The notes: generated by a model not told the origin, from the letters alone. A stretch of 64,000 nucleotides of DNA from a virus (IMGVR_UViG_2675903313_000009); one strand, 5' to 3'. Positions 16,047 to 57,121 are shown, counted from the stretch's first letter. Numbers and translations: made by a program.

Positions 16047-16405
16047 TGTCCATGAAAATGGGTGACCTAGCAAAGCGCAAAGAGCCTGATGCACCGGCTA
16101 AGAACACAACTCCTTTGCGCCAACCAGTCAGACCACAGGGACGCCCGACTCGTGGCAAAGAGAAAATTAAAAGCCGCACAATGTCACTGGAGGACGAATA
16201 CTTCGAACTGCTGGAGATGATGAAGTTCATCCCTCGCTTCGAGAAGTTCACTCGTTCTGACGTGATTCGTGCTGCTATTTTCCATCTTGCGGAGAAGACA
16301 CCGCAGGAAATCGAGGACATCGTGAAACTTAACGAGGCGATCACAGCTGCCGATGTCACGATGCGTACCGATGAAATCAAACGCGAGTTGATGAAGAAAG
16401 GTTAA
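16046..16405 (+). CDS. Small partition partner (ParG/ParB-like)
   Basis: 119 aa, basic N-terminus, overlaps the parA stop; fold assignment not verified. Confidence 0.5.
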   Translation: MSMKMGDLAKRKEPDAPAKNTTPLRQPVRPQGRPTRGKEKIKSRTMSLEDEYFELLEMMKFIPRFEKFTRSDVIRAAIFHLAEKTPQEIEDIVKLNEAITAADVTMRTDEIKRELMKKG

Positions 16406-16412
16406 TTTTATT

Positions 16413-16437
16413 GAGGTGCTGCTTGGCACCTCTTTCT
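16413..16437 (+). terminator. Rho-independent terminator after the partition operon
   Basis: GAGGTGC-TGCTTG-GCACCTC hairpin followed by TTTCT. Confidence 0.55.
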
Positions 16438-16449
16438 ATAGGTTCCCTA

Positions 16450-17169
16450 ATGCTCTACAAATATATTGGAAGTGAAGATTCGCAAAAAGTGTTACGTAAC
16501 CTCAAACGGTTTGTAGAGGACGGCACTATCTCTGCTAGCGCACCTTCTTCATTCAACGACCCATCAGAGTTCAAAGTTTCGATAACGATGGGAGGTACAG
16601 AAGTGGAGCACCGGAAACACTTTGAAGACAATGGATGTAAGGATTTTTCCTTTGAAGACTGGGATGCTGTAGCTCCTGAAGCTGCAAAATCGTTGGCTGT
16701 GGATTTGCGGAAAGAATCATTAGGGGCTTTTGGTGTGGTGTGCTTGTCACCAAACGAAGATAACATCTTGATGTGGTCACATTACTCAGTGTCGCATAAA
16801 GGTTTCTGCATAGGCTTTGATGATGATTTTGTTACCTCTATTGAGGGGTATCACAGCTTTGATAATGTGAAATATATACCTTCTGTTCCCGTGTTCGATG
16901 AAGTTACAGATGAGTTTAAGGTACTTTTTGATAAGCTCTTTTTCTACAAGCACGAATGCTGGAAATATGAGGAAGAACAAAGGGTTATTACTAAAAAAAT
17001 AGGCGCTCAGGCATTTGATAAGAAATATATTAGAGAGATCATTCTTGGACATAACGTTTCTCCTGAAGTAGAAGAATATGCCCGGACACAGCTAGACACG
17101 AGCATCGAGGTTTACAAAATGAGTACACCTGATGATGGTTATCTTCTTGTCAAAGAAAAGCTGAAGTAG
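16450..17169 (+). CDS. Hypothetical protein (DUF2971-like by motif memory)
   Basis: ATG at 16450 inside track ORF 16411-17169; begins MLYKY...; motifs FNDPSEF, MWSHYSVSHKGFCIGFD and ECWKYEEEQR resemble the DUF2971 pattern as I remember it (unverified). Confidence 0.5.
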   Translation: MLYKYIGSEDSQKVLRNLKRFVEDGTISASAPSSFNDPSEFKVSITMGGTEVEHRKHFEDNGCKDFSFEDWDAVAPEAAKSLAVDLRKESLGAFGVVCLSPNEDNILMWSHYSVSHKGFCIGFDDDFVTSIEGYHSFDNVKYIPSVPVFDEVTDEFKVLFDKLFFYKHECWKYEEEQRVITKKIGAQAFDKKYIREIILGHNVSPEVEEYARTQLDTSIEVYKMSTPDDGYLLVKEKLK

Positions 17170-17235
17170 CTCCAGACTTTCCTCAAATGATTATGTTGGG
17201 CGCTTTTCTTATTGAACTGGTTAGTGAGGCTAATA

Positions 17236-18408
17236 ATGGATTTGTTCTCAACCAAAATAGCAAAAAACAAGCTGCACGAATCTTTTAAACAGATTTATCA
17301 AGATAATACATATGCTCCAGTAAGAGAAGTGATACAGTCGTGGGGGCGTGGGTTACTGGAGCGTAGCGGTGAGCAGACTAAATTCGTTAAAGAGTTTCAG
17401 ACAACCTTCAATTCCGCCTTATGGGAATTGTATCTGAACGAAATGTTTATTCGTCTCGATTATTCTGTCGACTACACAAAAGACAGTCCCGATTTCTGTG
17501 TTACTACACCGTCAGGCTACCAGTTTAACGTCGAAGCTGTGATATCAGATCGGCCACATAATCCACCTGCAGGTGTTCTTTTTAGCGAATCAAAATTCAA
17601 ACATCAATCAACGCTAAAATTAATCGGAAAAATCAAAGACAAACATGATCTTTTTACAGGAGTTAATGGCAAAAAATTCCCGTACTCTACGATGTCTCAT
17701 GTAGTTAATAAGCCGTTTGTTCTGGCGCTTGCACCCTTTGACTCCGATTTATCATTGTCTCAAAATAACACAATCATCAATCGAGTGTTGTTTGGCATTG
17801 AGGAACCTACCACCAGAAATTTGGTGACTGGCAGCCAAACTAAAGTTACCTCAATCAAAAAGAATGAAGACGTTGAAATTCCATTAGGTATATTTACTAA
17901 CGACTCATATAAAGAAATAAGTGCGGTTATTTTCTCCACCACCGGCACTTTTGGAAAAGCCGTGGTTCAAAGCGGTATCGGTAGATATGTAAGGTCAACA
18001 CGATATCGAGCCATTGATGTGAATGATTTCATCGCCAATGAAGGGATGAAAAACGAGGGAAAGCACACACAAAGGATAGGACCTGATCATTTCATCACTA
18101 CATATCGGCATTTTTTAAATAACGAAGTCACTGGTGCGGATATTGTAGTTTGTCATTCCACTGCTCATGAAGAGACGCACTTTGACGGCCTTCATATTTA
18201 CTACAATCCTTTTGCGACAGTGCCACTGGACAGAAATATTTTCTTCCCCCCAGAGATAACTCATAATTTTTACGATATGGAAAAAGAACAGTCTGTTCAG
18301 AATCATCCTGATGGAGCGCTGGTATCTAGACAGGTTTTTGAACCAACTAGAGCACATTTTAGGTATATCATGAAACATTGGTTTCCAGGCTTTCTAAAAG
18401 ATGTTTAA
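17236..18408 (+). CDS. Hypothetical protein (about 390 aa), no recognisable domain
   Basis: Internal ATG of track ORF 17212-18408, preceded by a GAGG-like RBS; more AT-rich than the flanking modules; 66 nt downstream of the DUF2971-like gene, same strand. Confidence 0.5.
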   Translation: MDLFSTKIAKNKLHESFKQIYQDNTYAPVREVIQSWGRGLLERSGEQTKFVKEFQTTFNSALWELYLNEMFIRLDYSVDYTKDSPDFCVTTPSGYQFNVEAVISDRPHNPPAGVLFSESKFKHQSTLKLIGKIKDKHDLFTGVNGKKFPYSTMSHVVNKPFVLALAPFDSDLSLSQNNTIINRVLFGIEEPTTRNLVTGSQTKVTSIKKNEDVEIPLGIFTNDSYKEISAVIFSTTGTFGKAVVQSGIGRYVRSTRYRAIDVNDFIANEGMKNEGKHTQRIGPDHFITTYRHFLNNEVTGADIVVCHSTAHEETHFDGLHIYYNPFATVPLDRNIFFPPEITHNFYDMEKEQSVQNHPDGALVSRQVFEPTRAHFRYIMKHWFPGFLKDV

Positions 18409-18432
18409 GCATCCTGCTGGTTGAATTTGGAA

Positions 18433-18495
18433 CCTGCTTCTGTATATAAATACTAAGTTACTTATTATTATTTATACGGAAGCAGGTCTTTTTCT
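18433..18495 (+). terminator. Long AT-rich palindrome / terminator closing the cassette
   Basis: CCTGCTTCTGTATATAAATA ... TATTTATACGGAAGCAGG inverted repeat followed by TCTTTTTCT; loop contains TAAGTTACTTAT. Confidence 0.55.
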
Positions 18496-18596
18496 ATGCC
18501 AACTTCCCAGACACATTCCCTTCCGTTTCCACTTCCAAAAACTGCCACCAGTCGCTATCATCCGCTCATTGCAATAAGTAAGTAACTACCTATCTG

Positions 18597-19346
18597 GTGA
18601 GCCACATGAGCCAAATCTTTTTTGATACCATTGACAACGACCAGTACGACTTCATGACAGAGTGGAATACCGCTGTTATGGACAAGTGGGTCGCTGAAAA
18701 CATTGGTTTGTCGCGCTGCAAAGACGAGGCTGAACTCTTCGAGACGAAGTGGTTTGATTACCGCGATATGCATCCTCTCATGGCCACCTGTCTGTTTACG
18801 GAGGCGTACAAACGTCAGTACTCAAATATCATGCTGACGCACGGTCGCGAACACTTTGAAACAGCTCCGTTCACCACCGGGTTAAAACGCCTGCCTTATC
18901 AGGAGTTGTCGACTGCCAATAAAACGTCGCTATGGAAAGCACGCCAGTTTGCTGATCGCTATTGCTGTTCATACGACTACTTTATCTCCACGGTTCTTTC
19001 CGCAGCTGCACGGCGTCTGTGGGACAAGTTGCCGCGCCCACAGCATTTATGGCAGCCAGAACTGGTTGAGATATTCGAAGAGAAATTATCCAGACGCGCA
19101 ACAACCCGTCTGGATGACTCTCTGGTTAGCTTTAAGCATATGGGAGACATGCAGTTCAACCCGATTCAGGAAAGCTATTTTGAGTGGATTCTGGAGCGTT
19201 TGCGCATCATCCCCCGCAGCAAGCGCATACGCGCAATTTTCTCTGCTATCTGGCTAATGGAAATCGTTCCAGAGCGCCTTATTTCCGCCCACTTTCCAGA
19301 AGAACTGGAAGAAGCACGGCGGTTTATTGATCCCCTATCTAATTAA
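18597..19346 (+). CDS. Hypothetical protein (249 aa) preceding the helicase; possible replication accessory
   Basis: Track ORF (GTG start 18597 or ATG 18606); no motif recognised. Confidence 0.5.
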   Translation: MSHMSQIFFDTIDNDQYDFMTEWNTAVMDKWVAENIGLSRCKDEAELFETKWFDYRDMHPLMATCLFTEAYKRQYSNIMLTHGREHFETAPFTTGLKRLPYQELSTANKTSLWKARQFADRYCCSYDYFISTVLSAAARRLWDKLPRPQHLWQPELVEIFEEKLSRRATTRLDDSLVSFKHMGDMQFNPIQESYFEWILERLRIIPRSKRIRAIFSAIWLMEIVPERLISAHFPEELEEARRFIDPLSN

Positions 19347-19389
19347 CTAATACTAGAAAACAATTTGTTTAAAAAACAAAGGAAAGCAC

Positions 19390-20730
19390 ATGACCGAACT
19401 TTGCCATACAGGACGCGGGCTGTCCGAAGAGTTTGATGAAGATTTCCAGAACAGACTGACGGCATATTTTTGTCGTGATCACGAGTTTCTTACTCGTGCG
19501 GGAGATCTGGTTGTGCCTAGCCAATTTGCCAATGCGGCCAATGCCATATTGGTTAATATGGTTTCGGGCTATTACCGTATGTACAAGAGCGCGCCTTCTT
19601 CATCTGCGATTCTGGATATGCTTAAGCGCGCGAAACGCGATAAGACCATCCGTGAGGAACTCTTCCCGGATGTTGTTGCTGCGTTTAAGCGCATCCTTGC
19701 AGAAAAATTGTCTGATACCACGTACATGGTTGACCAGGTATCCACATTCGCAAAAAGTGTAGCGTTTGATGATGCTCTGATTAAAGCTGCTGAACTGAAA
19801 GAGAAGGGCGACTTTCAGGGGGCGATGGCAATCATGGCCAAGGTTCAGCAGATAGGCTCGAACGAAGCGACCGGAATCTATGACTACTACACCTCCGCAA
19901 GTGAGCGATTGAAAGCGCGTGAATATGAGGCTTCAGAGGAGTATGTGCCAAACAGCATTACAACTGGACTCCCTCTGCTCGATAGGTTGCTGTACCAAAA
20001 AGGCTGGGCGAAGCGTGAAATGGTGCTCTTCATGGGGTTCGCTAAATCCGGCAAATCGACCGCAATGGGTGAGTTTTCCATAAACGCAACGCTTGCTGGC
20101 TACAATGTTCTGTATCTCTCGCTGGAGGTTCACACCACCATTTTATCCGACCGTTTTGATGCAAGATTGTCGGAGACAGAAATGTCCAAGCTGGTGGAAC
20201 GGCGCGATGAGGTTCATCGTAAGTTGGCAGAGTTGGGAGCCACGAAGGGGATTGGTAGTTTGTGGGTGGTTGAGCGTCCGTCAGGAAGTATGTCACCGGC
20301 AGATCTGGACCGTATGCTTAACAGCATGAAAGCCAACGGCATGGTGCCTGACATGGTTGTTGTCGACTACGCAGATTTGATGCGTGCCAGTTATGACCTT
20401 CGTGATGATCGCGCCAACATTCGTAGTATCTACACCGATTTACGTGCTCTTTATGACAAGCATAACGTTGCTGGGATTACGGCATCGCAGACAAACCGTG
20501 AAGGTGGCGCGTCAGAAGTTGCCACAATGATGCACGCTGCCGACAACATCGAAAAAGTACGTATTGCTGACCTGGTAATAACGATCAACAAAACCGAAGA
20601 AGAAGAAGCGAAAGGAGAGGCTCGTCTCTACTTTGCTGGTTCACGTAACCAGCAGGGAGGGATCAGCATTCGCGTTAAACAAAACCTCGAACAAATGCGC
20701 TTCATTGAGCGAATCTTAGACGTTACCTAA
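19390..20730 (+). CDS. Replicative DNA helicase (DnaB family, RecA-like core)
   Basis: Walker A GFAKSGKST; 446 aa; conserved leader AAAGGAAAGCACATG upstream. Confidence 0.7.
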   Translation: MTELCHTGRGLSEEFDEDFQNRLTAYFCRDHEFLTRAGDLVVPSQFANAANAILVNMVSGYYRMYKSAPSSSAILDMLKRAKRDKTIREELFPDVVAAFKRILAEKLSDTTYMVDQVSTFAKSVAFDDALIKAAELKEKGDFQGAMAIMAKVQQIGSNEATGIYDYYTSASERLKAREYEASEEYVPNSITTGLPLLDRLLYQKGWAKREMVLFMGFAKSGKSTAMGEFSINATLAGYNVLYLSLEVHTTILSDRFDARLSETEMSKLVERRDEVHRKLAELGATKGIGSLWVVERPSGSMSPADLDRMLNSMKANGMVPDMVVVDYADLMRASYDLRDDRANIRSIYTDLRALYDKHNVAGITASQTNREGGASEVATMMHAADNIEKVRIADLVITINKTEEEEAKGEARLYFAGSRNQQGGISIRVKQNLEQMRFIERILDVT

Positions 20731-26712: not shown

Positions 26713-26911
26713 ACGGGAGAAGGAAACGCTTCATGAAATCAGTAAGTGGCCGGAGTTCCCTGAGTACTGGAAGCCTAAAACGCGAGCTAAGTTAGAGCGT
26801 TTAGGGTTGGTTGCAAACGTTTCTGAAACGTGGTGTTCGGCCAACTACCAGTTAACTGATAAAGGGAAAGTATTGCTACAGCAATTAGTAGAATCAGGAG
26901 TGTTAAAATGA
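26696..26911 (+). CDS. Small hypothetical protein (71 aa)
   Basis: Track ORF with AAGGAG RBS. Confidence 0.4.
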   Translation: MIVLSKREKETLHEISKWPEFPEYWKPKTRAKLERLGLVANVSETWCSANYQLTDKGKVLLQQLVESGVLK

Positions 26912-27060
26912 TTCCATACATCTCATTAGCTTTTATGGGTGGCTTCCTTATCGGCTTCGGCATCTGTCGTGATTTAATTAAGCAGGAACTTAAAACCAAA
27001 ACACTGTGCATCGGAAAGCGTGTGTATCGGGTAGTTCATGAAACAAAGGTGAAAAAATGA
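26908..27060 (+). CDS. Small membrane protein (50 aa), paralog of 26533-26712
   Basis: ATGA overlap with previous gene; TM helix then GKRVYRVVHET motif. Confidence 0.35.
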   Translation: MIPYISLAFMGGFLIGFGICRDLIKQELKTKTLCIGKRVYRVVHETKVKK

Positions 27061-27347: not shown

Positions 27348-27737
27348 AAACATATTGATAAGTATTTACTTACTTATCTTTTGTGTATAAGATGACTTTG
27401 TTTTCGTTGAGACGCGACTGTTTGAACTTAAATACAAGTGCAAACGAAGAAGTCTATCTGGCAGTAGCCTAATAAGCCAAACACCAGCGAGGTCAGTTTC
27501 CAGCCTCGTTACCGAAATGGGACACACTGAGCGAGTGTGATTGCAGAACGCAGGAGGGAACATTCATGTTCCCTCCGATGAAGTAACAGAATGGGCGGTT
27601 GGTATATTTTCAACTCCATATGACTCCCGGATTCTTAGCCACTGACCGCCCATCCTGTTACGTCATTTTGTTCAATTATGTCGTTTATACTGGGTTAAAA
27701 AGCGGCGACGTAGCCCGGCTGGTATGGTTAGCCAGCA

Positions 27738-27859
27738 CACAACGTTGAGGCCATTACATTTTTATCAATTCTAAGGTTCTATTCACAGAGATACCGGCGA
27801 ACGTTGATATGTAACATGTTGGGCAAACATTCAATCGGAGTAGTGGCCTCAACGTTGTG
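27738..27859. repeat. Long inverted repeat (16-bp arms CACAACGTTGAGGCCA / TGGCCTCAACGTTGTG, about 90-nt loop)
   Basis: Perfect complementarity read directly; first of three related stems around the tRNA genes. Confidence 0.6.
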
Positions 27860-28125
27860 AAGACGGGATTGTTGTGTAGGTTTAACCACTGTTGCCATTG
27901 GTGCCTGTTTTCACAACAAATGATTCCATACATCACATAGTATAAATTACAAAGTAGGTGCTGTCCTCAGAAACATCATCTACTTAAAGATTTTGCCTTC
28001 TACTATTGAGCGAAGTCGAAAGCGTCTGGCACTAACGAAAAGTGCAAGTAGCGGTGCGTTTCCTGGCAGAAACTAAACCGTCGCGATTGGCACTGTTGAG
28101 TAATAAATACTGGCAGTGCTGAATT

Positions 28126-28200
28126 GATGGTGTAGCTCAGCGGTAGAGCAGTTGGCTGTTAACCAACTGGTCGGTGGTTCGAATCCACCCACCATCGCCA
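28126..28200 (+). tRNA. tRNA-Asn (anticodon GTT)
   Basis: Hand-folded cloverleaf: acceptor GATGGTG/CACCATC, anticodon loop CTGTTAA, T-loop TTCGAAT, encoded CCA. Confidence 0.8.
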
Positions 28201-28205
28201 ATTTA

Positions 28206-28292
28206 GGGGAGTTAGTCCGTAGAGGTAGCGGTGTAGACTGTAAATCTACTGTCATGGCGACTCGGGTGGTTCGACTCCATCACTCCCCACCA
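28206..28292 (+). tRNA. tRNA-Tyr (anticodon GTA), long variable arm
   Basis: Acceptor GGGGAGT/ACTCCCC, anticodon stem-loop GTAGA-CTGTAAA-TCTAC, T-loop TTCGACT, CCA end; D-arm not fully canonical in my fold. Confidence 0.65.
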
Positions 28293-28296
28293 AATT

Positions 28297-28372
28297 GCCG
28301 GTTTAGCTCAGTTGGTAGAGCAGTCGCTTTGTAAGCGAATGGCCAGCGGTTCAAGTCCGTTAACCGGCACCA
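28297..28372 (+). tRNA. tRNA-Thr (anticodon TGT)
   Basis: Acceptor GCCGGTT/AACCGGC, D-arm AGCTCAGTTGGTAGAGC, anticodon loop TTTGTAA, T-loop TTCAAGT, CCA end. Confidence 0.8.
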
Positions 28373-28373
28373 A

Positions 28374-28462
28374 CACAACAGGTAAGAGCATTGGGCGAAT
28401 CGGCGATACTGACCCACAAGGCCGTAAATCGATAGAGTCAGACCAGTGCTCTTACCGTTGTG
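28374..28462. repeat. Long inverted repeat (about 20-bp arms CACAACAGGTAAGAGCATTGG / CCAGTGCTCTTACCGTTGTG)
   Basis: Between tRNA-Thr and tRNA-Ser; one bulge and one mismatch. Confidence 0.6.
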
Positions 28463-28562
28463 ATGAATGCACAGGCTGATGTGCCGCAACTACAGTAGTG
28501 CGCGCTTTGCGGGGCTTGCTACAACCCTGTGTCGGAGTTCAGTACCGACCATCACAATAGCT

Positions 28563-28649
28563 GGAGAGTAGGGAGCATGGTGCTCAAGCGGTCTTGAAAA
28601 CCGTTCCATTGTGCAAACGATGATGGTTCGATTCCATTACTCTCCGCCA
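28563..28649 (+). tRNA. tRNA-Ser (anticodon TGA), long variable arm
   Basis: Acceptor GGAGAGT/ACTCTCC, anticodon stem-loop GCGGT-CTTGAAA-ACCGT, T-loop TTCGATT, CCA end. Confidence 0.7.
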
Positions 28650-28841: not shown

Positions 28842-30104
28842 TTACTTTACATAGTCGCCCAGTTTTAATATTTCGCGCTTATATTCTTTAACCATGCTAC
28901 TGGATTCAGTATAAATTCGATTTAAAAGATTATCGCTATCTTTATTCTCATTTATCTTAATGAGTGATAATTTAAATTCATAGTCATCAAATGCCACAAT
29001 CAAATGGTGGCCTGGGATTATATCTTCGTCACTCTTGAAGTATATATCTTCAAGTATGTAATCTAGTTGATTAGATTTTCTTTTCTCGATGTAATCTTCA
29101 GCCATAGCTATTACATCATTCCTGTCATTTAACCTGTTTTTTTCGGAAGGCACATCTTCGTAATGTTGCACGATTGAACAACCAATAAGGCGTGGGATGT
29201 AAACGTCAAAATGAGTAACTCTATCATTCGCGGTTTTAAGTTGTTCCTCAAAGTAGTTTCTTACATGTAAAGGCAACTTCTCAAAGTAATCATTAATTAT
29301 AGGAGAACAAGGAGTTTTATAATTCATAAGAACCGACGGTACGAGCTGTGGGCGTCGAAACATCCAGTCCCTTTTAACGTCCGATGGAACATAATAACTT
29401 TTAATGATATTATCAAAATAATTTATCATTCGAGATTTGAATATTTTATTGAATCTAAGGTTTATGAATGTATCCAGATAAGGCATATTTGAATAAGCAT
29501 CATCAAAAAATATTTCATCATTGAAAAAATCATATTTATTCAATAAACAACACAGTTTTTCCGAATTAATATGTTCACAATAATCGATTTTTAATCCAAA
29601 GATAGCAATGATCAACTTCATCTGAGGTGGGATTTTAAAAATTAATTGTGATACATACGCTCTTTTTTCCTTGAGACATTCCCCATCAATATAAAATGAA
29701 CTATCCACATACTCAAATATATTAATAATATGCTTCACATACTGTATTACCTCATGCTGTTTTACCAATGGGTAATAGAGTCTATGTAACTCATCGCTGT
29801 TTAAATTAATTTTGTGTTTATCGATAATTTGTTTTGCAAGAAGACATAACGCATCATGTTGATTTAATAAGGAATCAAACCATTGTTTAAATGCACTCTT
29901 TCGCATTTCGAACAATGATTCAGTTGTTAATTGAAGGGCTGAAAAAGCTGCTTTTGCACTTTTTCTCGCTTCGTAGGCATTCCATGCTGTTGCTATAAAA
30001 GCAAATGCTGTAGCCAATGTTCCAACAGTTTGACCATTTAAAACAACCCAATCCCAAAAAATAACGGTGAGCAGTAGTATAATAATGAAAATTAAAAAAG
30101 GCAT
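28842..30104 (-). CDS. Hypothetical membrane-anchored protein (420 aa), strongly AT-rich
   Basis: Only long ORF in a markedly AT-rich segment; N-terminal TM helix (MPFLIFIIILLLTVIFWDWVV...); Ile/Lys/Asn/Tyr/Phe-rich; no motif recognised. Confidence 0.6.
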   Translation of the reverse strand: MPFLIFIIILLLTVIFWDWVVLNGQTVGTLATAFAFIATAWNAYEARKSAKAAFSALQLTTESLFEMRKSAFKQWFDSLLNQHDALCLLAKQIIDKHKINLNSDELHRLYYPLVKQHEVIQYVKHIINIFEYVDSSFYIDGECLKEKRAYVSQLIFKIPPQMKLIIAIFGLKIDYCEHINSEKLCCLLNKYDFFNDEIFFDDAYSNMPYLDTFINLRFNKIFKSRMINYFDNIIKSYYVPSDVKRDWMFRRPQLVPSVLMNYKTPCSPIINDYFEKLPLHVRNYFEEQLKTANDRVTHFDVYIPRLIGCSIVQHYEDVPSEKNRLNDRNDVIAMAEDYIEKRKSNQLDYILEDIYFKSDEDIIPGHHLIVAFDDYEFKLSLIKINENKDSDNLLNRIYTESSSMVKEYKREILKLGDYVK

Positions 30105-30278
30105 GTATGTATTTCACTCTACTAACTATAAATTATTAGGCTAATGTTAACCAAACAATGCCTTAATTAATAGATTGATCGAGGCTTTAATAGCTTTATA
30201 ATGCAGACTGCAAAGATAAGTATGCACATACCTATCTTCTTTGTAAGTAAAGTTGCATATCAATTCTATGAGGTAACA

Positions 30279-30524
30279 ATGACGATCACTATCTACGGAC
30301 GAGATAACTGCTCATACTGCAAACGTGCGGTCGAGCTGGCGAAGCAACTAAAGGGACATGGCTACGGTGATTATGAGTACATCGACATCACCACTGCCGG
30401 TATCAACAAGGAAAAACTAAGTGAAATTGTTGGTAAACCGGTAGAGACTATCCCCCAGGTGCTGATCGATGGCCAGCCGATTGGCGGATACACAGAACTG
30501 GCTGCATACGTCAGCACCCTCTGA
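30279..30524 (+). CDS. Glutaredoxin (Grx1-like)
   Basis: Internal Met of track ORF 30201-30524; CSYC redox motif and GKPVETIPQVLIDGQPIGGYTELAAYV closely resemble E. coli glutaredoxin 1 from memory. Confidence 0.8.
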   Translation: MTITIYGRDNCSYCKRAVELAKQLKGHGYGDYEYIDITTAGINKEKLSEIVGKPVETIPQVLIDGQPIGGYTELAAYVSTL

Positions 30525-30530
30525 TTTTAA

Positions 30531-30554
30531 CGGCTCACAGGAGCCGTTTTTATT
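30531..30554 (+). terminator. Rho-independent terminator
   Basis: CGGCTC-ACAG-GAGCCG hairpin followed by TTTTTATT. Confidence 0.65.
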
Positions 30555-30734
30555 CCCACCAAACTCACTCCCATTTCCCTTAAAATTCAAAAAACAACGT
30601 CAAAATGATTCCATACCTACTATGTATGGAATCATTACTGAAAATGAGTTACTTTTACTCTTGATCCTATAAGAATCTATGCCTAATATACTGTTTACTT
30701 ATACAGTGAATCGGCGTAACTCGGTGATTGTCAT

Positions 30735-31838
30735 ATGAAAAATAGCTTTGACAGAGCACGCGCTGCGGAGAACACCTCAAAAGAGGCGATTGAGTATCTC
30801 GAAAGAGCATCTCAAATGCAGGCCGTTATGATCTCGCAGGTCAGCAATGACATGAGATTCTCGGACGCATTCATGTTATTCACTCGCTTATCTCTGCTGA
30901 TAACAAGACGTCGGCCAGAGATCGCTGTTCATTGTATTTTGATACATGTTTTGCCGCACATTGCCGATGTAAAAGTAAGTGACATTAATAGGTTCATGGT
31001 GAACCAACTGGTCAACCCACTAATACTGGATGGCAAAATTGTTATGGGCCGCCGCGTTTTCTCTCTGATGAAGCAGTTCCTTAGCTGGTGCGCCTTCCAG
31101 GGGATGATAGACGTGTCACCGTTAAACGATATGTCACTAAACAAAGTTGCCGGTGGCGCAAAGCCCACACCTCGCGAGCGGAAGCTGACCGACGCAGAGG
31201 TATGGGTGTTCTGGAATATATGGGACTACTTCAATGTGTGCGCTGGTACAAAATGGGCGGCCAGGCTGTGTCTTGTATCCGCAAGACGACCTGACGAAGT
31301 ACTGCGGGCTAAAAAAAGTGAGTTCAATCTTAAGCGTGGGGTTTGGAATCAAGGCAAGAGGAACAAATCTGCCCGTGAGCATTCGCTGCCTTTAAGCACA
31401 TTAATGCGCACATGTATTGAAGAGTTGTTCGAATACGGTAAAGGCAGCCAGTGGCTCGTGCCTTCGAATAAAAAAATCGGGAAAGACCTTCCTATGTCTA
31501 AAGTGGCAATAGCCCAGGCATTACGTCGTATCCTGGAACGACCAGAACTGATGGAGCTTGAGCCATTTACACCCCGAGACTTGCGCCGTACTGCGCGTAG
31601 TTACTTCCCAGCATTAGGCATAAGCCAGGAGGTATCACGCAAAATCATGAACCACAGTCTTGAGGGGATAGATCGAGTCTACGACCGGCACGATTATATG
31701 GACGAGATGCGAGACGCCTTAGAAAGTTTCTCGACGTACATCGCATCAATCGTAGAGCAACCGGATTTAGACGAAATTGACCACAAATTCAAGGGAGATC
31801 GTCTATCAACAGAGCTTATTCGTGTAAATTTTTCATAG
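30735..31838 (+). CDS. Tyrosine recombinase / integrase-like protein
   Basis: C-terminal half has catalytic-type blocks (..ARRPDEVL.., ..TPRDLRRTARSY.., ..NHSLEGIDRVYDRHDY..); the usual His of the H-x-x-R box appears as Arg; start uncertain. Confidence 0.6.
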   Translation: MKNSFDRARAAENTSKEAIEYLERASQMQAVMISQVSNDMRFSDAFMLFTRLSLLITRRRPEIAVHCILIHVLPHIADVKVSDINRFMVNQLVNPLILDGKIVMGRRVFSLMKQFLSWCAFQGMIDVSPLNDMSLNKVAGGAKPTPRERKLTDAEVWVFWNIWDYFNVCAGTKWAARLCLVSARRPDEVLRAKKSEFNLKRGVWNQGKRNKSAREHSLPLSTLMRTCIEELFEYGKGSQWLVPSNKKIGKDLPMSKVAIAQALRRILERPELMELEPFTPRDLRRTARSYFPALGISQEVSRKIMNHSLEGIDRVYDRHDYMDEMRDALESFSTYIASIVEQPDLDEIDHKFKGDRLSTELIRVNFS

Positions 31839-32219
31839 AGACTTTATGGCCTCAACAACCTTTTGTGATGCGCCTTTCTCTTTACCGAATCGCTCGTTAT
31901 ATGCAGCAAGAACCTGTTTTTCGTCCTCGTTAAGAGGAGCGGTGCCTTCTTTGTATAAAAATGCTGCGAGTTCAGGTTGGCGTTCTTCCAGCACCATCAT
32001 CATAAGACGACTTGGCTCAATACCCAGCGCCAGCGCCAACGGACGAACCTTATCGATAGGCAAAGGAATTTTGCCACTTTTAATTAAAGAAAGGTTGTTG
32101 GCATTTTTATAACCAATAAGTCTGGCTATTTGGGCCTGACTCATAGGTGAGGATTCAATCAGCCCTGCGATAAAAGCAGCATAGCGACTTTCTATAAATT
32201 CAATCTTGTTGTCAGACAT
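31833..32219 (-). CDS. HTH (XRE-family-like) transcriptional regulator, candidate repressor
   Basis: HTH-like segment MSQAQIARLIGYKNANNLSLIKSGK; divergent from a promoter region containing GGTAAGTGCTTACC palindromes. Confidence 0.65.
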   Translation of the reverse strand: MSDNKIEFIESRYAAFIAGLIESSPMSQAQIARLIGYKNANNLSLIKSGKIPLPIDKVRPLALALGIEPSRLMMMVLEERQPELAAFLYKEGTAPLNEDEKQVLAAYNERFGKEKGASQKVVEAIKSL

Positions 32220-32469
32220 TGTTACAACCTTTGCGCGTTCAATTCTCTCTGGTAAGTGCTTACCGATATTACATCAAAGGTTAGGGTTGTAAAGCTATTA
32301 TCATTTTTTCGATAGGCACTTAAAAGACCGGTTAAAGGCCATTGCACGGAGAAAAATTAGCCCAAAACAGGTAAGAAAATTAACTTGCATATGATATGAA
32401 TGTATTCAGTATTGATATAAATTTTAGTAGTATTCCTTACCATAGTATAAGTTAGAATGGATTGATTGA

Positions 32470-32682
32470 ATGAACACCACTATTTCCAGCCTAATCGCTC
32501 TTGAGATCGGACACGTACAGAAATTAGCTGATGAGTGTGTAGCTGACATCCTCACCGATCTACCGAATGAGCAGATTCAGGTTGGTGTGAATGACACAAC
32601 TGGCTTTATATTCGAACTTAACAACAAACGCTTCACGCTTCTCAATATCGGCTCCGGGTCTTTAGCCGTCAGAATCTGTTAA
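32470..32682 (+). CDS. Small hypothetical protein (70 aa)
   Basis: Track ORF divergent from the HTH gene; weak support. Confidence 0.3.
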   Translation: MNTTISSLIALEIGHVQKLADECVADILTDLPNEQIQVGVNDTTGFIFELNNKRFTLLNIGSGSLAVRIC

Positions 32683-32780
32683 CCCCTCTTCTCCCTGCGC
32701 GAATGGCTTAGTTCCCTGTTCGCGCAGTGCTACATTAAACACACTAGTAAATAATTTGTTTTCATAACAAAGGATTAGCC

Positions 32781-36426: not shown

Positions 36427-39400
36427 CTTCTCACTTGGGGAGTCGGCTCTAAAAGCAGAAAACGCGGTGAAGATTGCCAGAGAAGCTGGCTACACCGCTG
36501 TAATTTCAGCAGATAGCATGAATATTGCGAGCGTTATTCCACTACAACGTGCCGCTGGTGACGACATGGCGGTTATTTGTGGTGTGAAACTAAACATTGT
36601 TGATGATCCCACATACGAGCACCGGGCTAAACTTGCTAAAGAATCTATGAGATGTATGGAATCATTAGAGCGGGGACGTAACTACTCGTTTACCGCTCTA
36701 ATTAAAAATGAGCAAGGATATCGCGACATCTGCGAACTAATGACGGTGGCCAACACACGAGAACAGTTCTACTTTGTACCGCGTCTCTCGCTCGAAAAGT
36801 TGGTTTCTACATATGCCAAAGGCAACATCATCCTGCTCACTTCCGACATCGGTAGCGTGTTCCAACGCAACGATTTTGCAAAAATCATAAGCTCACTGAT
36901 TACAGCGGGCGGGAAAGACAACTTCTATAGTGTGGTTTATCCGCACCCTACCCCATTCTACGACCAGATTAACGTCCGAGCGATGAAAGTCGCCAGCGCA
37001 CTGAAAATAGAGCCAGTAGCGTTCTATCCCGCTTATTACGAATCGATCGACGATGCAGACATTAAAGACATTGCGCACATGGTTACGAACAACATAAAAA
37101 TCGACCAGCCGCATCGTCTGCGTATCCCCCACCAGCGAGATAACGCCATCAATGGTCGTCGCCATCTCCTTGAGGCGCTTAAAGCCTTCTCCGTTCGCAT
37201 GGATGTGCCGGTAACAGCTGCAATGGCCTCAACAACGCAGGACTCCATTATCGATGCCTGCACATGGCGCTGGCATGAATTGCCACCAGCACTGCCCAAG
37301 ATGGCAGACGACGAACCTGCAACGCTGATGAAACTGGCTGTTGCAGGGCTGCGTAAACGTCTTACCACAAAAGAGTTTGGATACACACCACCTGCTTCTG
37401 AGAACAGGGTTTATGTTGAGCGGCTAAAGTACGAAATGGACACGCTGACTCGCCTGGGATTCTGTGGTTACTTCCTGATGGTACGCGATCTGATGAATCA
37501 CAGCCGTGAAACTGGCATTCCTGTCGGGCCTGGTCGTGGTTCCTCTGCCGGTTCTCTGGTGGCGTGGTGCATAGGCATAACCAACGTCGACCCAATCCGT
37601 CACGGTCTTCTGTTTGAGCGTTTCATCAACCCTGAGCGTCTCGACTTGCCGGATGCGGACTTGGACTTCAGCCAGGCACGTCGCCATGAGGTGATCGAGT
37701 ATCTGAATGAACGCTACGGCGAAGATTACGTTGCAGGCATTCCGAACTTCACCTACCTGGGCGCAGCCTCTGCACTACGTGACACCGCTCGTATTTATGG
37801 TGTGGAGTCCGCAGATATGGCGGTATCAAAAGAACTGAAGAACGTCGAGGATGATAGCCTTCCATTGGAAGAGCTGCGCGAACAACTGGCAAGTCTCGAC
37901 AAATACGCAACAAAATATCCTGATGCATTCAATGCAGCCTGCAAGTTACAAAGCCTTATGCGTGGCTTTGGTAGACATGCGGCAGGGATGATCGTAGCAG
38001 GTGTTCCTCTAACAGAACGTACACCGGTTGAGCGCCGTGGTGACGCGCGTTGTATCGCATTTGACAAGCGTTACTGCGAGGCTATGGGCCTAATTAAGCT
38101 GGACGTACTTGGTCTGGCAACTCTCGATTTGCTCGATAGTGCAAAACGCTACATAAAAGAGAACACAGGTGAAGATATCAATCTTGATGCCATTTCTCTT
38201 GAAGATCGCAAGGTGCTGGATGGTTTTGCTGCTGGGTACACTCAAGGTGTTTTCCAGCTTGAATCAGGCCCAATGCGCAAGCTGCTTAAAGATTTAGGTG
38301 GTGGAATTGAGCCAATGAGCTTTAAAACGGTTGTTGCTACGACTGCGCTCTTCCGGCCGGGGCCAATTCAGTCAGGCATGTTGGATGACTATGTTTCTGT
38401 AGCCAAAGGCTTTATGACGCCGGAATCATTACACCCCGTTCTTGATGAACTTACCGCAGAAACAAATGGCGTGATTCTCTATCAGGAACAGACGATGAAC
38501 GCGACTCGATTGCTTGCTGGCTTCACAATGGCTGAAGCTGACGGCGTTCGTAAAGCGATCGGTAAAAAAGACATGGAAAAAATGAAGAGCATGGGCGAGA
38601 AGTTCATCGTTCAGGCTCAAGCTGGCTGGATAGACGTTGAGCTGGAAGATGGCACTACACAGCGCATTCACCGTGCGGAACATTTTAAATGCGAAGACGG
38701 AACTCTGAAAACTGTCGAAGAGGCACTTGAGTACGGCGCAAAACTACCTATAAACGCAGTACGCGTTACAGCGTCACATCCAGGGCTATCAGAGATGAAA
38801 GCGAAGGAGATCTGGACCGCATTCGAAAAGAATGGTGCCTACCAGTTCAACAAATCACACTCTGTTGCTTACTCCTTAATCAGTTATCAATCTATGTGGT
38901 TGAAAACTCATTATCCCGCGGAGTTCTTCGCTGCTGCTCTCACTATTCTTGGCGAAGATAAACACCAGGGGCTGGTTAAAGATGCGCTGACCTATGGTAT
39001 TCGCGTATTGCCACCAGACGTTAACGTGTCATCTAACCGAATCGAGATCCGCACGCTTGAAGATGGCAGCCAGGTGCTGTATGCGCCCTTCTCTGCTGTG
39101 AAAGGGTGTTCTGAGAATGGCTGCCAAGCCATCATGAGAGCGCGAGAAAAAGTTGGCGGCAAATTCGAGTCACTGGCGCAATTCGAAGAAGCTGTCGAGA
39201 AACGTGCCTGTAATAGTCGAGTGCGCGAATCGCTGCAAAAAGTAGGGGCGTTTGCATCCATCGAGCCAGGCAGTCTGCCAGCAACTGATCCAGAGCGCCT
39301 ACGCGACCAGGCTGAATTGATGGGAAACCTTGTCATAGACGCAGTTAAAGCCTCACGTCCGTTTGAGATGAACCCCAAACGTTCGGCTGAAATTAACGTA

Positions 39401-54626: not shown

Positions 54627-54660
54627 TTTCATTGATAGGTAAGTGCTTATCTATTAACAT

Positions 54661-57015: not shown

Positions 57016-57020
57016 CATAT

Positions 57021-57050
57021 GGTGGGGGATATCCCCACCTTCTCTTTGAT
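57021..57050 (+). terminator. Hairpin/terminator after nrdA
   Basis: GGTGGGGGA-TAT-CCCCACC hairpin followed by a T-rich tract. Confidence 0.5.
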
Positions 57051-57121
57051 TTGTAAGCCTTGTTTAAACACATAAGATAACAACTTGTTTAAACGCACCA
57101 AAAAAGAAAAAGGAAAAACAC

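What the first reader, a model, noticed from the sequence alone, without database searches (positions are those of the whole stretch)
30279..32700. Glutaredoxin - tyrosine integrase - HTH repressor module beside the tRNA island on a plasmid-type element
An integrase next to tRNA genes suggests either that the element can also integrate, or that a separate integrative island with cargo (the AT-rich gene and glutaredoxin) inserted into the phage-plasmid. The integrase-like protein has an Arg where the His of the H-x-x-R box is expected, so it may be a specialised recombinase (resolvase-like or inactive). The divergent HTH gene faces a promoter region with GGTAAGTGCTTACC-type palindromes.
Basis: partly seen in the sequence, partly recalled or inferred. 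Interest (0 to 1): 0.45.

Follow-up and report, generated by a model that had tools for sequence, protein, structure and literature searches.

The report
Phage-plasmid recombinase with its own lox-like site
The "integrase" is not the mark of an inserted island: it is a conserved backbone gene of an SSU5-type E. coli phage-plasmid, and it always travels with a previously unremarked 13-7-13 inverted-repeat target site, so it most likely works like Cre/lox to keep the plasmid monomeric.

Summary
The three genes exist as described: a GrxA-type glutaredoxin (30279-30524), a tyrosine recombinase (30735-31838) and an XRE-type HTH regulator (31833-32219, minus strand). The Arg-for-His change in the HxxR box is real, and so is one GGTAAGTGCTTACC palindrome.

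The island and integration reading is not supported.
- No tRNA-derived repeats occur anywhere in the window.
- Int-HTH-orf70-CobT-CobS-DnaE synteny is kept in SSU5-type phage-plasmids from Escherichia to Xenorhabdus and Morganella.
- All 255 occurrences in 5,426 complete E. coli genomes are on plasmids.

New finding: a perfect inverted repeat, AATGATTCCATAC-CTACTAT-GTATGGAATCATT (30604-30636), lies 99 bp upstream of int.
- An equivalent site with a 7-bp spacer sits upstream of int in 68 of 71 related loci, including lone int genes on Pantoea and Rahnella megaplasmids.
- Two arm types track the Int clade.
- The protein lacks the arm-binding domain of its P4-type relatives.

Best reading: a self-contained, Cre/lox-like recombination module, probably for multimer resolution or cyclisation. 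Next to it sits the lysogeny-type repressor, whose palindrome recurs in the nrdAB promoter.

Unexplained: three to four isolated copies of the arm, TGATTCCATACATC. They point toward the site, and some are embedded in coding sequence (in relatives also within int itself).

The parts
26907..26919 (+). Isolated copy of the recombinase arm (AATGATTCCATAC, extended ...ATC), overlapping the start codon of a 50-aa ORF
   Evidence: Exact 13-mer. The orthologous copy is kept in Klebsiella pJN2-26, Cyrano and Kluyvera.
27919..27931 (+). Isolated arm copy in non-coding DNA, about 200 bp upstream of the tRNA array
   Evidence: Exact 13-mer. It is orthologous in Klebsiella, Kluyvera and Buttiauxella, and forms a 15-nt invariant run.
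28126..28649 (+). tRNA array (Asn, Tyr, Thr, Ser). Its composition varies among relatives.
   Evidence: ARAGORN and Rfam. Cyrano has Asn/Thr/Ser, and pJN2-26 has only Asn.
28842..30104 (-). AT-rich 420-aa accessory gene with a hydrophobic N-terminus and unknown function, lying in a variable cargo slot
   Evidence: GC 0.32. It matches phrog_18168 only and has no Pfam or PADLOC hit. The slot is replaced by other genes in Cyrano and by an AbiGi-annotated pair in pR7-S2K78-1.
30175..30236 (+). Glutaredoxin promoter-like site (TTGATC-16-TATAAT) followed by the imperfect palindrome GATAAGTATGCACATACCTATC
   Evidence: Promoter scan scores 10/12. The palindrome pairs with GATAAGTATTTACTTACTTATC at 27357 (D3/I1). 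No function has been tested.
30279..30524 (+). GrxA-family glutaredoxin (CSYC), the likely reductant for the element's own NrdAB
   Evidence: NF008401 at 107.7 bits, above the 84 cut-off. nrdA and nrdB lie at 54700-58264. A terminator lies at 30529-30548.
30585..30594 (.). Conserved A-tract box (ATTCAAAAAA), 10 bp left of the core site
   Evidence: A similar box, (AG)ATTTCAAAAAA, sits at the same distance in most relatives even though the DNA further left differs. No role has been tested.
30604..30636 (.). Candidate recombination core site: 13-bp perfect inverted arms around an asymmetric 7-bp spacer (AATGATTCCATAC CTACTAT GTATGGAATCATT)
   Evidence: One such site lies upstream of int in 68 of 71 related loci, with two arm types that track the Int clade.
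30661..30689 (+). Probable int promoter (TTGATC-17-TAATAT)
   Evidence: Read from the sequence. ATGCCTAATATACTG is the longest invariant run upstream of int in 5 genera. It scores 8/12, below the scan's threshold.
30735..31838 (+). Tyrosine recombinase (367 aa): R185, K211, R281 (in place of His), R284, H307, Y316. It has no arm-binding domain.
31341..31351 (-). Near copy of the arm inside int (TGATTCCAAAC, one mismatch). The copy is exact in Klebsiella, Yersinia and Kluyvera.
   Evidence: It overlaps the conserved V-W-N-Q codons, so it may be partly a by-product of the coding sequence.
31833..32219 (-). XRE-type HTH regulator (128 aa), convergent with int and overlapping it by 6 bp. It is the probable lysogeny repressor.
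   Evidence: The 98%-identical CYRAN_45 is expressed 10-fold above background in lysogens (PMC9928086).
32251..32293 (-). HTH promoter (TTTACA-16-TAATAT), with the GGTAAGTGCTTACC palindrome (32251-32264) just downstream of the -10
   Evidence: The palindrome is conserved in Klebsiella, Yersinia, Kluyvera and Buttiauxella.
32470..32682 (+). Conserved 70-aa ORF of unknown function, the first gene of the rightward cobT-cobS-dnaE operon
   Evidence: phrog_2627 at E 5e-40. It is syntenic in relatives.
36654..36666 (-). Isolated arm copy inside dnaE (codons about 85-89), on the antisense strand
   Evidence: Exact 13-mer. It lies at the same offset (+253) in Klebsiella, Yersinia and Kluyvera. It is part of a 16-nt invariant run, the second longest in the gene, inside a variable protein segment.
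54638..54651 (+). Second copy of the operator-like palindrome (GGTAAGTGCTTATC), between TTGATA and TAACAT upstream of nrdA
   Evidence: It is conserved upstream of nrdA in Klebsiella pJN2-26 and Salmonella phage SSU5.

Best explanation
The segment is backbone of an SSU5-type (Cyrano/pLF82-like) E. coli phage-plasmid, not an inserted island. It juxtaposes three functionally separate things.

(1) A GrxA-type glutaredoxin. This shell gene belongs with the element's own class Ia ribonucleotide reductase. It sits in an accessory-gene hot spot.

(2) A self-contained site-specific recombination module.
- The recombinase comes from a distinct lambda/P4-like lineage that has lost the arm-binding domain and carries RxxR instead of HxxR.
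- Its target is a 13-7-13 inverted-repeat core site (30604-30636) about 100 bp upstream of the gene.
- The inferred mechanism: one Int monomer binds each 13-bp arm, two sites synapse, and strands are exchanged across the 7-bp asymmetric spacer.
- Most probably this resolves plasmid multimers and/or circularises infecting DNA, as Cre/loxP does for P1.

(3) An XRE-type repressor, convergent with int and divergent from the orf70-cobT-cobS-dnaE operon.
- It probably binds the GGTAAGTGCTTAYC palindrome at its own promoter, giving autoregulation.
- It probably also binds the copy in the nrdAB promoter, which would keep replication and nucleotide-metabolism genes quiet in the plasmid state.

Shown here: the gene identities, conservation, synteny, site-recombinase co-inheritance and covariation, and exclusively plasmid location in E. 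coli.

Inferred: DNA binding by Int and by the HTH protein, catalytic activity, and the biological role (resolution rather than integration).
For: Core status and synteny: searches show Int-HTH-CobT-CobS-DnaE in Escherichia, Klebsiella, Y. pestis, Kluyvera, Buttiauxella, Citrobacter, Xenorhabdus and Morganella. Pfeifer 2021 (PMC7969092) lists tyrosine recombinases among the persistent genes of the SSU5 supergroup.

No integration signature:
- 0 of 255 int-HTH places are chromosomal in 5,426 E. coli genomes.
- The 49-bp site has no chromosomal match even at E<=10.
- No tRNA 3'-end repeats exist.

Site:
- The palindrome is a perfect 13-7-13.
- Exactly one equivalent site lies 47-254 bp upstream of int in 68 of 71 loci. 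The three exceptions are two distant (31-34% identical) outgroups and one fragment.
- Arms are TGATTCCATAC with the Int clade that is at least 57% identical to ours, and TGACTCCAGAC with the 45-52% clade. Both arms change together.
- One Chimaeribacter genome carries both types on different contigs, which rules out a host factor as the binder.
- The spacer is always 7 bp but varies in sequence and occurs in both orientations.
- Lone int-plus-site modules sit among ordinary genes on Pantoea plasmids pPANA1, pC3_1 and pA, with the site intact.

Protein:
- R185, K211, R284, H307 and Y316 are conserved across 43-87% identity.
- No PF13356 arm-binding domain is present, unlike the P4-type outgroups.
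- The model (pLDDT 81) best matches lambda Int bound to its core site, at E 5e-7.

Precedent: target sites predicted as inverted repeats next to recombinase genes were validated for Nigri and Panto, and for 8 of 17 further candidates (PMC4957104 and PMC10250229).

Repressor:
- XRE fold.
- The palindrome lies just after the -10 of its own promoter.
- A second copy lies in the nrdA promoter.
- In Klebsiella both copies carry the same central G-to-A change.
- CYRAN_45 is expressed in lysogens, and Cyrano is induced by ciprofloxacin.
Against: - No experiment shows recombination by this protein.
- In Cre, His289-to-Arg is one of only five substitutions at that position that abolish recombination (PMC2943603). 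Arg at this position is therefore not obviously benign.
- Multimer resolution rather than another role is inferred only from plasmid location and the analogy with P1.
- The site lies upstream of int and could serve purely, or also, as an autoregulatory operator.
- The isolated arm copies at 26907, 27919, (31341) and 36654 have no place in a plain Cre/lox model.
- The HTH hits to Pfam are below the curated cut-offs, and its C-terminal third is modelled with low confidence (pLDDT about 55-60).
- Binding of the HTH protein to the palindrome is untested.
- Integration in hosts other than E. coli was not excluded.
Confidence: 0.68

Rival explanations
1. The integrase lets the element, or a separate tRNA-associated island carrying the AT-rich gene and glutaredoxin, integrate into a chromosome. 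The palindrome would then be an attP core.
For: - The protein is nearest to P4/CP4-57-type integrases that target tRNA and tmRNA genes; one source names a family member 'Prophage CP4-57 integrase'.
- tRNA genes and a tmRNA-tag-like sequence lie 2-3 kb away.
- The cargo next to the site is variable.
- Some family members lie on contigs of 0.5-0.9 Mb.
Against: - No tRNA-end repeats exist.
- No chromosomal copy of int-HTH or of the site exists in 5,426 E. coli genomes.
- Int and HTH are core and syntenic across genera.
- The arm-binding domain that directional integrases use is absent.
- On large replicons the site is intact beside int rather than split into hybrid sites.
- The long records whose titles say so are plasmids (pPANA1, pC3_1, pA). 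The neighbours looked at in three loci are ordinary metabolic genes, not prophage ends.
Confidence: 0.07
2. The Int-like protein is mainly, or additionally, a sequence-specific DNA-binding regulator or organiser rather than a recombinase. Precedents are the recombinase-fold phage repressors MrpR and SroF. In this reading the palindrome is its operator, and the scattered arm copies are further binding sites.
For: - Five exact 13-mers lie within 9.8 kb, and none elsewhere in about 114 kb of the element. About 0.002 exact copies are expected per 64 kb.
- The copies are kept at orthologous positions in Klebsiella, Yersinia and Kluyvera, including inside dnaE and int.
- Arg at the His position inactivates Cre.
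- The fold search also returns MrpR (8a0a) and SroF (9rgl, 9rd5). MrpR binds a repeated 15-bp element at about ten promoters (PMC10516654).
- The site lies upstream of int's promoter.
Against: - All other catalytic residues, including Tyr316 and both Args, are invariant across the family, whereas MrpR 'lacks crucial amino acid residues'.
- A basic residue at this position is natural in the active SSV1-type integrases (KxxR; PMC8371274).
- The isolated copies are absent from the Xenorhabdus and Morganella phage-plasmids and from all lone modules, which still keep the full site.
- Two of the isolated copies lie inside genes, not at promoters.
- The distance from site to int varies from 47 to 254 bp, which is unlike a fixed operator.
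Confidence: 0.2
3. The palindrome is only a transcription terminator or RNA hairpin for the upstream gene, or a chance inverted repeat. The recombinase would then be a decaying relic.
For: The palindrome follows the glutaredoxin gene and could form a hairpin with a 13-bp stem.
Against: - Glutaredoxin already has a GC-rich terminator with a T-run at 30529-30548, and the palindrome has no T-run.
- The palindrome accompanies int whatever gene lies upstream, in 68 of 71 loci.
- The arm sequence, not merely the pairing, is fixed within each clade.
- 107 of 107 family representatives keep RDLRR and full length.
Confidence: 0.03

Closest known systems
Cre/loxP of phage-plasmid P1, and the engineered relatives Dre/rox, Vika/vox, Nigri/nox and Panto/pox
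   Same: - A phage-plasmid-borne tyrosine recombinase without an arm-binding domain.
- A target made of two 13-bp inverted arms around a short asymmetric spacer, placed next to the gene.
- The expected role is keeping the plasmid monomeric or circularising incoming DNA (PMC2409434 abstract; PMC7969092; PMC4957104).
   Different: - There is no detectable sequence relationship to Cre. Sequence searches of the PDB find nothing, and Foldseek scores Cre at only E 0.06, against 5e-7 for lambda Int.
- The spacer is 7 bp, not 8.
- The active site reads RxxR where Cre has HxxR, and H289R is inactive in Cre.
- Extra isolated arm copies flank the site.
- Activity is untested.
P4/CP4-57/SXT-type ('complex') integrases, with the domain order DUF4102 - Phage_int_M - Phage_integrase
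   Same: - They are the nearest sequence relatives outside the family, at 24-34% identity. They share the central and catalytic domains and motifs such as xDLRRT and VYDRHDY.
- Lambda Int, the best structural match, also exchanges strands across a 7-bp overlap region (this last point is from my own knowledge, not a tool result).
   Different: - The N-terminal arm-binding domain PF13356 is missing.
- There is no tRNA or tmRNA attachment site.
- The gene is found on plasmids, not at prophage or island ends.
- The His of HxxR is replaced by Arg.
MrpR (YopR) of SPbeta and SroF of phi3T: master repressors with a tyrosine-recombinase fold
   Same: - They have the same fold and belong to temperate phages.
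- Their short DNA element is repeated at several places in the element (PMC10516654; PDB hits).
   Different: - MrpR has lost catalytic residues and recombinase function, whereas here Tyr, both Args, Lys and the second His are invariant.
- A separate XRE-type repressor is encoded next door.
- The repeated copies here are few, polar, and partly inside genes.
Small phage and SaPI XRE-type repressors without a peptidase domain (Stl, SPC32H-type Rep, 434/P22 Cro-CI DNA-binding domains, R-M C-proteins)
   Same: - A five-helix HTH domain with a short helical tail.
- The gene is divergent from an early operon.
- A palindromic operator sits at its own promoter.
- The gene is expressed in lysogens.
   Different: - Family membership is weak by sequence: below the Pfam cut-offs, and the best PDB sequence hit has E 0.08.
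- Homologues are confined to SSU5-type phage-plasmids.
- Neither the operator nor the induction route has been tested.

Membership tests
Tyrosine recombinase (Pfam PF00589) | Profile match above the curated cut-off, and the recombinase fold | tested here: met
   PF00589 scores 39.4 bits against a cut-off of 27.1. The AlphaFold model (pLDDT 81) matches lambda Int 1z1b at E 5e-7 and probability 1.00.
Tyrosine recombinase (Pfam PF00589) | Catalytic Arg I, Lys, Arg II, His/Trp III and the Tyr nucleophile | tested here: met
   R185, K211, R284, H307 and Y316 align with the outgroups and are invariant or nearly so in 17-23 sequences.
Tyrosine recombinase (Pfam PF00589) | His II of the HxxR box | tested here: not met
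   R281 is present in 107 of 107 full-length family representatives. His II is only about 87% conserved family-wide and is K or Y in archaeal subfamilies. However, H289R inactivates Cre.
Tyrosine recombinase (Pfam PF00589) | Catalyses site-specific strand exchange | not testable with these tools
   This needs a two-site deletion or inversion assay with a Y316F control.
P4/CP4-57-type arm-binding integrases | N-terminal arm-type DNA-binding domain (PF13356/DUF4102) | tested here: not met
   The query has no PF13356 hit, and none is precomputed for any of the 113 family hits, whereas the outgroups P0114-P0120 have it. The alignment shows that the domain is missing.
P4/CP4-57-type arm-binding integrases | Attachment site derived from the 3' end of a tRNA or tmRNA gene, giving flanking direct repeats | tested here: not met
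   No second copy of any of the four tRNA 3' ends (16-25 nt, mismatches allowed) exists in the 64-kb window.
Integrative island or prophage | Occurs integrated in chromosomes | tested here: not met
   All 255 places are on plasmids in 5,426 complete E. coli genomes, and the site has no chromosomal match. Other genera were not scanned systematically.
Integrative island or prophage | Sporadic presence relative to the host element's backbone | tested here: not met
   Int and HTH are present in conserved synteny in phage-plasmids of at least 8 genera. Only the DNA between tRNA-Asn and the site varies.
Cre/lox-like simple recombinase-site systems (functional class) | Inverted arms of about 13 bp around a 6-8 bp asymmetric spacer, next to the recombinase gene | tested here: met
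   The site at 30604-30636 is a perfect 13-7-13, 99 bp from the int ATG. The same holds in 68 of 71 related loci.
Cre/lox-like simple recombinase-site systems (functional class) | Arm sequence co-varies with the recombinase | tested here: met
   Two arm types (TGATTCCATAC and TGACTCCAGAC) follow the two Int clades, and both arms change together.
Cre family (sequence membership) | Detectable homology to Cre | tested here: not met
   phmmer and a profile search of PDB sequences find no hit. Foldseek scores Cre at E 0.058.
XRE/Cro-CI HTH regulators | Helix-turn-helix domain of the XRE type | tested here: inconclusive
   - Pfam HTH_19 scores 18.9 bits (cut-off 30.2) and HTH_37 scores 16.4 bits (cut-off 27).
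- phrog_8 matches at E 7e-12.
- The model (pLDDT 73) matches Stl, C.BclI, SinR and P22 c2/434 Cro domains at probability 1.00, but with E >= 0.007.
- Public sources name the homologues XRE family.
XRE/Cro-CI HTH regulators | Palindromic operator at a regulated promoter | tested here: met
   GGTAAGTGCTTACC lies directly after the -10 of its own promoter, and a second copy lies between the -35 and -10 of nrdA. Both are conserved in other genera. Binding itself was not tested.
LexA/CI-type self-cleaving repressors | C-terminal S24 peptidase domain | tested here: not met
   The protein has 128 aa and no peptidase hit.
GrxA glutaredoxin | Equivalog profile above the cut-off, and a CxxC active site | tested here: met
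   NF008401 scores 107.7 bits against 84. The sequence contains CSYC.
MrpR/SroF recombinase-fold repressors | Loss of catalytic residues | tested here: not met
   The catalytic Tyr, Args, Lys and His III are all retained. MrpR lacks them.

The most novel reading that the evidence does not exclude
Besides recombining at its palindromic site, the RxxR recombinase binds as a monomer to isolated 14-bp arm copies (TGATTCCATACATC).

- These copies are kept at fixed positions over about 10 kb, on both sides of the site and all pointing toward it.
- They are written into three different reading frames or strands (the orf50 start, int, dnaE) and one non-coding spot.

This would make it a recombinase that also organises or polarises its neighbourhood. 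Possibilities include a resolution-selectivity or topological filter acting at kilobase range, a fork-trap-like arrangement around the resolution site, or regulation of the kind MrpR carries out. None of these has been described for a catalytically intact tyrosine recombinase on a plasmid.
Probability: 0.2. Interest if true: 0.7.

Novelty: new variant of a known kind. Interest (0 to 1): 0.42.

Why it matters
SSU5-type phage-plasmids are common in clinical Enterobacterales; here they occur in 252 of 5,426 complete E. coli genomes. Recent phage-plasmid papers describe these elements as typically lacking integrases.

- **Annotation.** Showing that their conserved 'integrase' comes with its own lox-like site explains why a non-integrating element keeps such a gene. 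It also corrects a misleading annotation and gives a directly testable maintenance function.
- **A possible tool.** The family offers two natural recombinase/site specificities. Its architecture (7-bp spacer, RxxR active site, lambda-like fold without arm binding) would not have been picked up by the Cre-type, 8-bp-spacer discovery pipelines. It could therefore yield orthogonal genome-engineering tools.
- **Catalysis.** It is a natural test of how Arg can substitute for the general-acid/base His.
- **Regulation.** The operator shared by the repressor gene and nrdAB gives a first handle on how this group controls its replication and nucleotide-metabolism genes.

Tried and rejected
- **tRNA-derived att repeats.** I searched the window for the 16-, 20- and 25-nt 3' ends of all four tRNAs, allowing mismatches. 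Only the tRNAs themselves matched.
- **Chromosomal integration in E. coli.** Neither the genes nor the site has a chromosomal copy.
- **An Int cluster with members on contigs up to 0.9 Mb.** The look-up showed only phage-plasmid-sized places. The larger ones were collapsed as having the same neighbours, so no junction was seen.
- **Sequence searches of the PDB.** Int alone and as a profile found nothing. The HTH profile gave only a marginal LexA-DBD hit.
- **PADLOC.** There was no defence-system hit for the AT-rich gene, Int or orf70.
- **Int-mediated cassette insertion as the source of cargo.** I rejected this as unproven. Homology with Cyrano resumes 18 bp left of the site. A conserved A-tract box, not the spacer, marks the boundary.
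- **Isolated arm copies as scars of old recombination events.** This is unlikely. They share an ATC extension that no present spacer has, and two lie inside core genes.
- **Full tmRNA around the tag-like sequence at 27440.** ARAGORN finds none. Rfam hits are far below threshold. A search for an acceptor stem, T-arm and CCA end found nothing convincing.
- **Literature.** Searches for the site sequences and for an SSU5/pHCM2/pMT1 resolution system found no description. The library holds open-access papers only.

Full report
**What the window is.** The 5.5 kb around the finding is 99.9% identical to E. coli plasmid pTW10722_119. It is 93-99% identical to many non-mobilizable E. coli plasmids of about 105-120 kb, and 97.7% identical to phage Cyrano (pLF82), a phage-plasmid that makes virions. 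The flanking genes are typical of the SSU5 supergroup: DNA ligase, CobT/CobS-like proteins, DnaE, and NrdAB further on.

- The glutaredoxin (30279-30524) passes the GrxA equivalog cut-off, at 107.7 bits against 84.
- The recombinase (30735-31838) passes PF00589.
- The 128-aa minus-strand gene (31833-32219) gives only sub-threshold HTH hits by Pfam. It does match the phage regulator family phrog_8. Its homologues carry the name XRE family in public sources, and its predicted structure has an XRE-type five-helix domain.
- Aligned with P4-type outgroups, the recombinase has R185, K211, R284, H307 and Y316 in place, and R281 where the His of HxxR is expected. Arg occupies that position in 107 of 107 full-length family representatives.
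- GGTAAGTGCTTACC occurs exactly once, at 32251.

**The island and integration reading fails its own tests.**
- No second copy of any tRNA 3' end exists in the window.
- The order Int, HTH (convergent, with overlapping ends), a 70-aa ORF, CobT, CobS, DnaE is kept in Klebsiella pJN2-26, Yersinia pestis pMT1-type DNA, Kluyvera, Buttiauxella and Citrobacter. It is also kept, with Int only about 46% identical, in Xenorhabdus and Morganella phage-plasmids.
- In 5,426 complete E. coli genomes, 252 carry int-HTH. All 255 places are on plasmids.
- The literature agrees that tyrosine recombinases are among the persistent genes of the SSU5 supergroup (PMC7969092).
- What does vary is the DNA between tRNA-Asn and a point about 20-30 bp left of the palindrome described below.
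  - The tRNA set differs among relatives.
  - The AT-rich 420-aa gene of this window is replaced by other genes in Cyrano, and by an AbiGi-annotated pair in pR7-S2K78-1.
  - Extra genes can sit between Grx and int.
  - Grx itself is missing from several relatives.
- The three genes are therefore neighbours, not a module. Grx, a GrxA type, fits best with the element's own class Ia ribonucleotide reductase. That link is an inference.

**A target site travels with the recombinase.** Ninety-nine bp upstream of the int ATG lies a perfect inverted repeat, AATGATTCCATAC CTACTAT GTATGGAATCATT (30604-30636).
- I fetched 65 genomic loci encoding relatives of Int and added phage and plasmid records. Exactly one site of the form arm-N7-arm lies 47-254 bp upstream of int in 68 of 71 loci. 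The exceptions are two 31-34% identical outgroups and one fragment.
- The arms come in two types. TGATTCCATAC accompanies the Escherichia, Klebsiella, Yersinia, Kluyvera, Buttiauxella, Citrobacter and Chimaeribacter clade, where Int is at least 57% identical to ours. TGACTCCAGAC accompanies the Pantoea, Rahnella, Erwinia, Ewingella, Xenorhabdus, Photorhabdus, Morganella and Hafnia clade (45-52% identical).
- The two differing positions change in both arms together.
- One Chimaeribacter genome carries both types on different contigs, so the binder is not a host protein.
- The spacer is always 7 bp, but it varies in sequence and occurs in either orientation relative to int (for example CTATTAA and TTAATAG).
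- Conserved arms around a free, asymmetric spacer is what a tyrosine-recombinase core site looks like. It is not what a terminator looks like: Grx has its own terminator at 30529-30548.
- Most clade-B loci carry none of the phage-plasmid genes, and several are titled plasmids (pPANA1, pC3_1, pA). In the three such loci inspected (pPANA1, plus a Chimaeribacter and a Biostraticola contig) int and the site are set among ordinary metabolic and regulatory genes. The site is intact beside int in all of them. This is the arrangement of a replicon-maintenance system, not of a prophage end.

**The protein fits a simple recombinase.**
- Its nearest relatives outside the family are P4/CP4-57-type integrases carrying the DUF4102 arm-binding domain. 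The whole SSU5-type family lacks that domain.
- The model (pLDDT 81) is closest to lambda Int bound to its core site and to Tn1549 Int. Cre is far weaker.
- Sequence searches of the PDB find nothing, so this is a distinct lineage.
- The Arg at the His II position deserves attention. In Cre, H289R is one of only five substitutions at that position that abolish recombination (PMC2943603).
- Three points argue that RxxR is a working variant here. His II is the least conserved catalytic residue, at about 87%. Active archaeal SSV1-type integrases use KxxR (PMC8371274). And the Arg here is fixed alongside otherwise invariant catalytic residues and a conserved target.
- Activity remains unshown.

**Most likely role.** The evidence consists of exclusively plasmid location in E. 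coli, an intact site next to the gene, no arm-binding domain, and the P1 Cre/loxP precedent. On that basis I infer multimer resolution and/or circularisation of incoming DNA. Earlier work validated target sites predicted in the same way for Cre-type enzymes, at roughly a 50% success rate (PMC4957104 and PMC10250229). Those searches required 8-bp spacers and Cre-type proteins, so they would not have caught this family. I found no description of this site in the searchable literature.

**An unexplained feature.**
- The 13-mer arm occurs five times exactly in the window: 26907 (+), 27919 (+), the two arms of the site, and 36654 (-). A one-mismatch copy lies at 31341 (-) inside int.
- About 0.002 exact copies are expected by chance. 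None occurs in the other 50 kb of the closest plasmid.
- The isolated copies share a further ATC, giving TGATTCCATACATC.
- All copies on the left are on the plus strand and all on the right are on the minus strand.
- They sit at orthologous positions in Klebsiella, Yersinia and Kluyvera although the flanks have diverged.
- The dnaE copy is part of a 16-nt invariant run, the second longest in the 3.5-kb gene, within a variable stretch of the protein.
- The motif is embedded in different frames and strands, so the constraint acts on the DNA.
- Xenorhabdus and Morganella phage-plasmids and all lone modules lack such copies. They are therefore an add-on of one phage-plasmid clade.
- The fold search also returned MrpR and SroF, recombinase-fold phage repressors that bind repeated elements. 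A regulatory or organising second role for Int is therefore a live alternative, although MrpR has lost the catalytic residues that Int keeps.

**The repressor.**
- The HTH gene has a good promoter (TTTACA-16-TAATAT). The palindrome lies immediately downstream of the -10, which suggests autoregulation.
- A second copy, GGTAAGTGCTTATC, lies between TTGATA and TAACAT just upstream of nrdA.
- Both positions keep the palindrome in Klebsiella (GGTAAGTACTTACC and GGTAAGTACTTATT), and SSU5 keeps it at nrdA. The same central base change in both Klebsiella copies hints at one binding protein.
- Homologues are confined to SSU5-type phage-plasmids.
- The 98%-identical Cyrano gene is annotated as a putative repressor and is transcribed 10-fold above background in lysogens. 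Cyrano is induced by ciprofloxacin (PMC9928086).
- The protein has no peptidase domain. Induction presumably goes through another factor, which is an inference.

**Verdict.** The integration and island interpretation is not supported. The 'specialised recombinase' hint is supported and made concrete by the discovery of the cognate site. The segment is ordinary backbone for this known group of elements. The recombinase-site pair, however, is an uncharacterised variant of the Cre/lox kind with an unusual active site, and the polar isolated arm copies are odd.

Noticed in passing
window 27350-27900 (tag-like sequence at 27440-27475): A strongly conserved non-coding stretch lies between a small ORF and the tRNA array, with invariant runs of 30-36 nt across three genera. 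It contains GCA AAC GAA GAA GTC TAT CTG GCA GTA GCC TAA TAA, which reads ANEEVYLAVA** and closely resembles a tmRNA tag (E. coli ANDENYALAA). Two Rfam tmRNA models align exactly there, but far below threshold. ARAGORN finds no tmRNA, and I found no acceptor stem or T-arm. It may be a tmRNA-derived RNA or a novel one.
   Followed up: partly
window 26907-26919, 27919-27931, 31341-31351, 36654-36666: Isolated copies of the recombinase arm, extended to TGATTCCATACATC, all point toward the palindromic site. They are conserved at orthologous positions in other genera and partly lie inside coding sequence (the orf50 start, int, dnaE). Their function is unknown.
   Followed up: partly
window 54638-54651, upstream of nrdA (54700-57015) and nrdB (57122-58264): A second copy of the palindrome found at the HTH gene's promoter sits between -35-like and -10-like hexamers of the ribonucleotide reductase operon. 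It is conserved in Klebsiella pJN2-26 and Salmonella phage SSU5.
   Followed up: partly
window 27357-27378 and 30215-30236: A second class of palindrome (GATAAGTATTTACTTACTTATC, and the imperfect GATAAGTATGCACATACCTATC) shares the half-site TAAGT with the HTH operator but has wider spacing. One copy precedes the tmRNA-tag-like region and the other follows the glutaredoxin promoter. A TAAGT-N4-ACTTA motif also lies upstream of the HTH gene in Morganella and Photorhabdus relatives, with a looser variant in Xenorhabdus.
   Followed up: no
window 28842-30104 (minus strand), and the equivalent slot in relatives: An AT-rich (GC 0.32) 420-aa gene with a hydrophobic N-terminus has no Pfam or PADLOC match. 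The same slot holds an AbiGi-annotated pair in plasmid pR7-S2K78-1 (L075). A different gene, between Grx and the site, is transcribed 723-fold above background in Cyrano (CYRAN_43). The region is an accessory or defence gene hot spot.
   Followed up: partly
window 30585-30594: A conserved A-tract box (ATTCAAAAAA) lies about 10 bp left of the core site and is kept in most relatives although the DNA beyond it differs. It may be a bend or an accessory-factor site.
   Followed up: no
L003 (NZ_CP035843.1) 16144-19435, outside the window: The closest complete plasmid carries chromosomal-type apbC (mrp) and metG genes next to a small S24-peptidase gene and near an IS66 element. This suggests capture of host DNA by this phage-plasmid.
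   Followed up: no
L008 and L055 (Chimaeribacter californicus, two contigs): One genome carries two int-plus-site modules with different arm sequences: TGATTCCATAC, and the hybrid TGACGCCAGAC/GTATGGAGTCA. This fits replicon-specific, non-cross-reacting systems.
   Followed up: no
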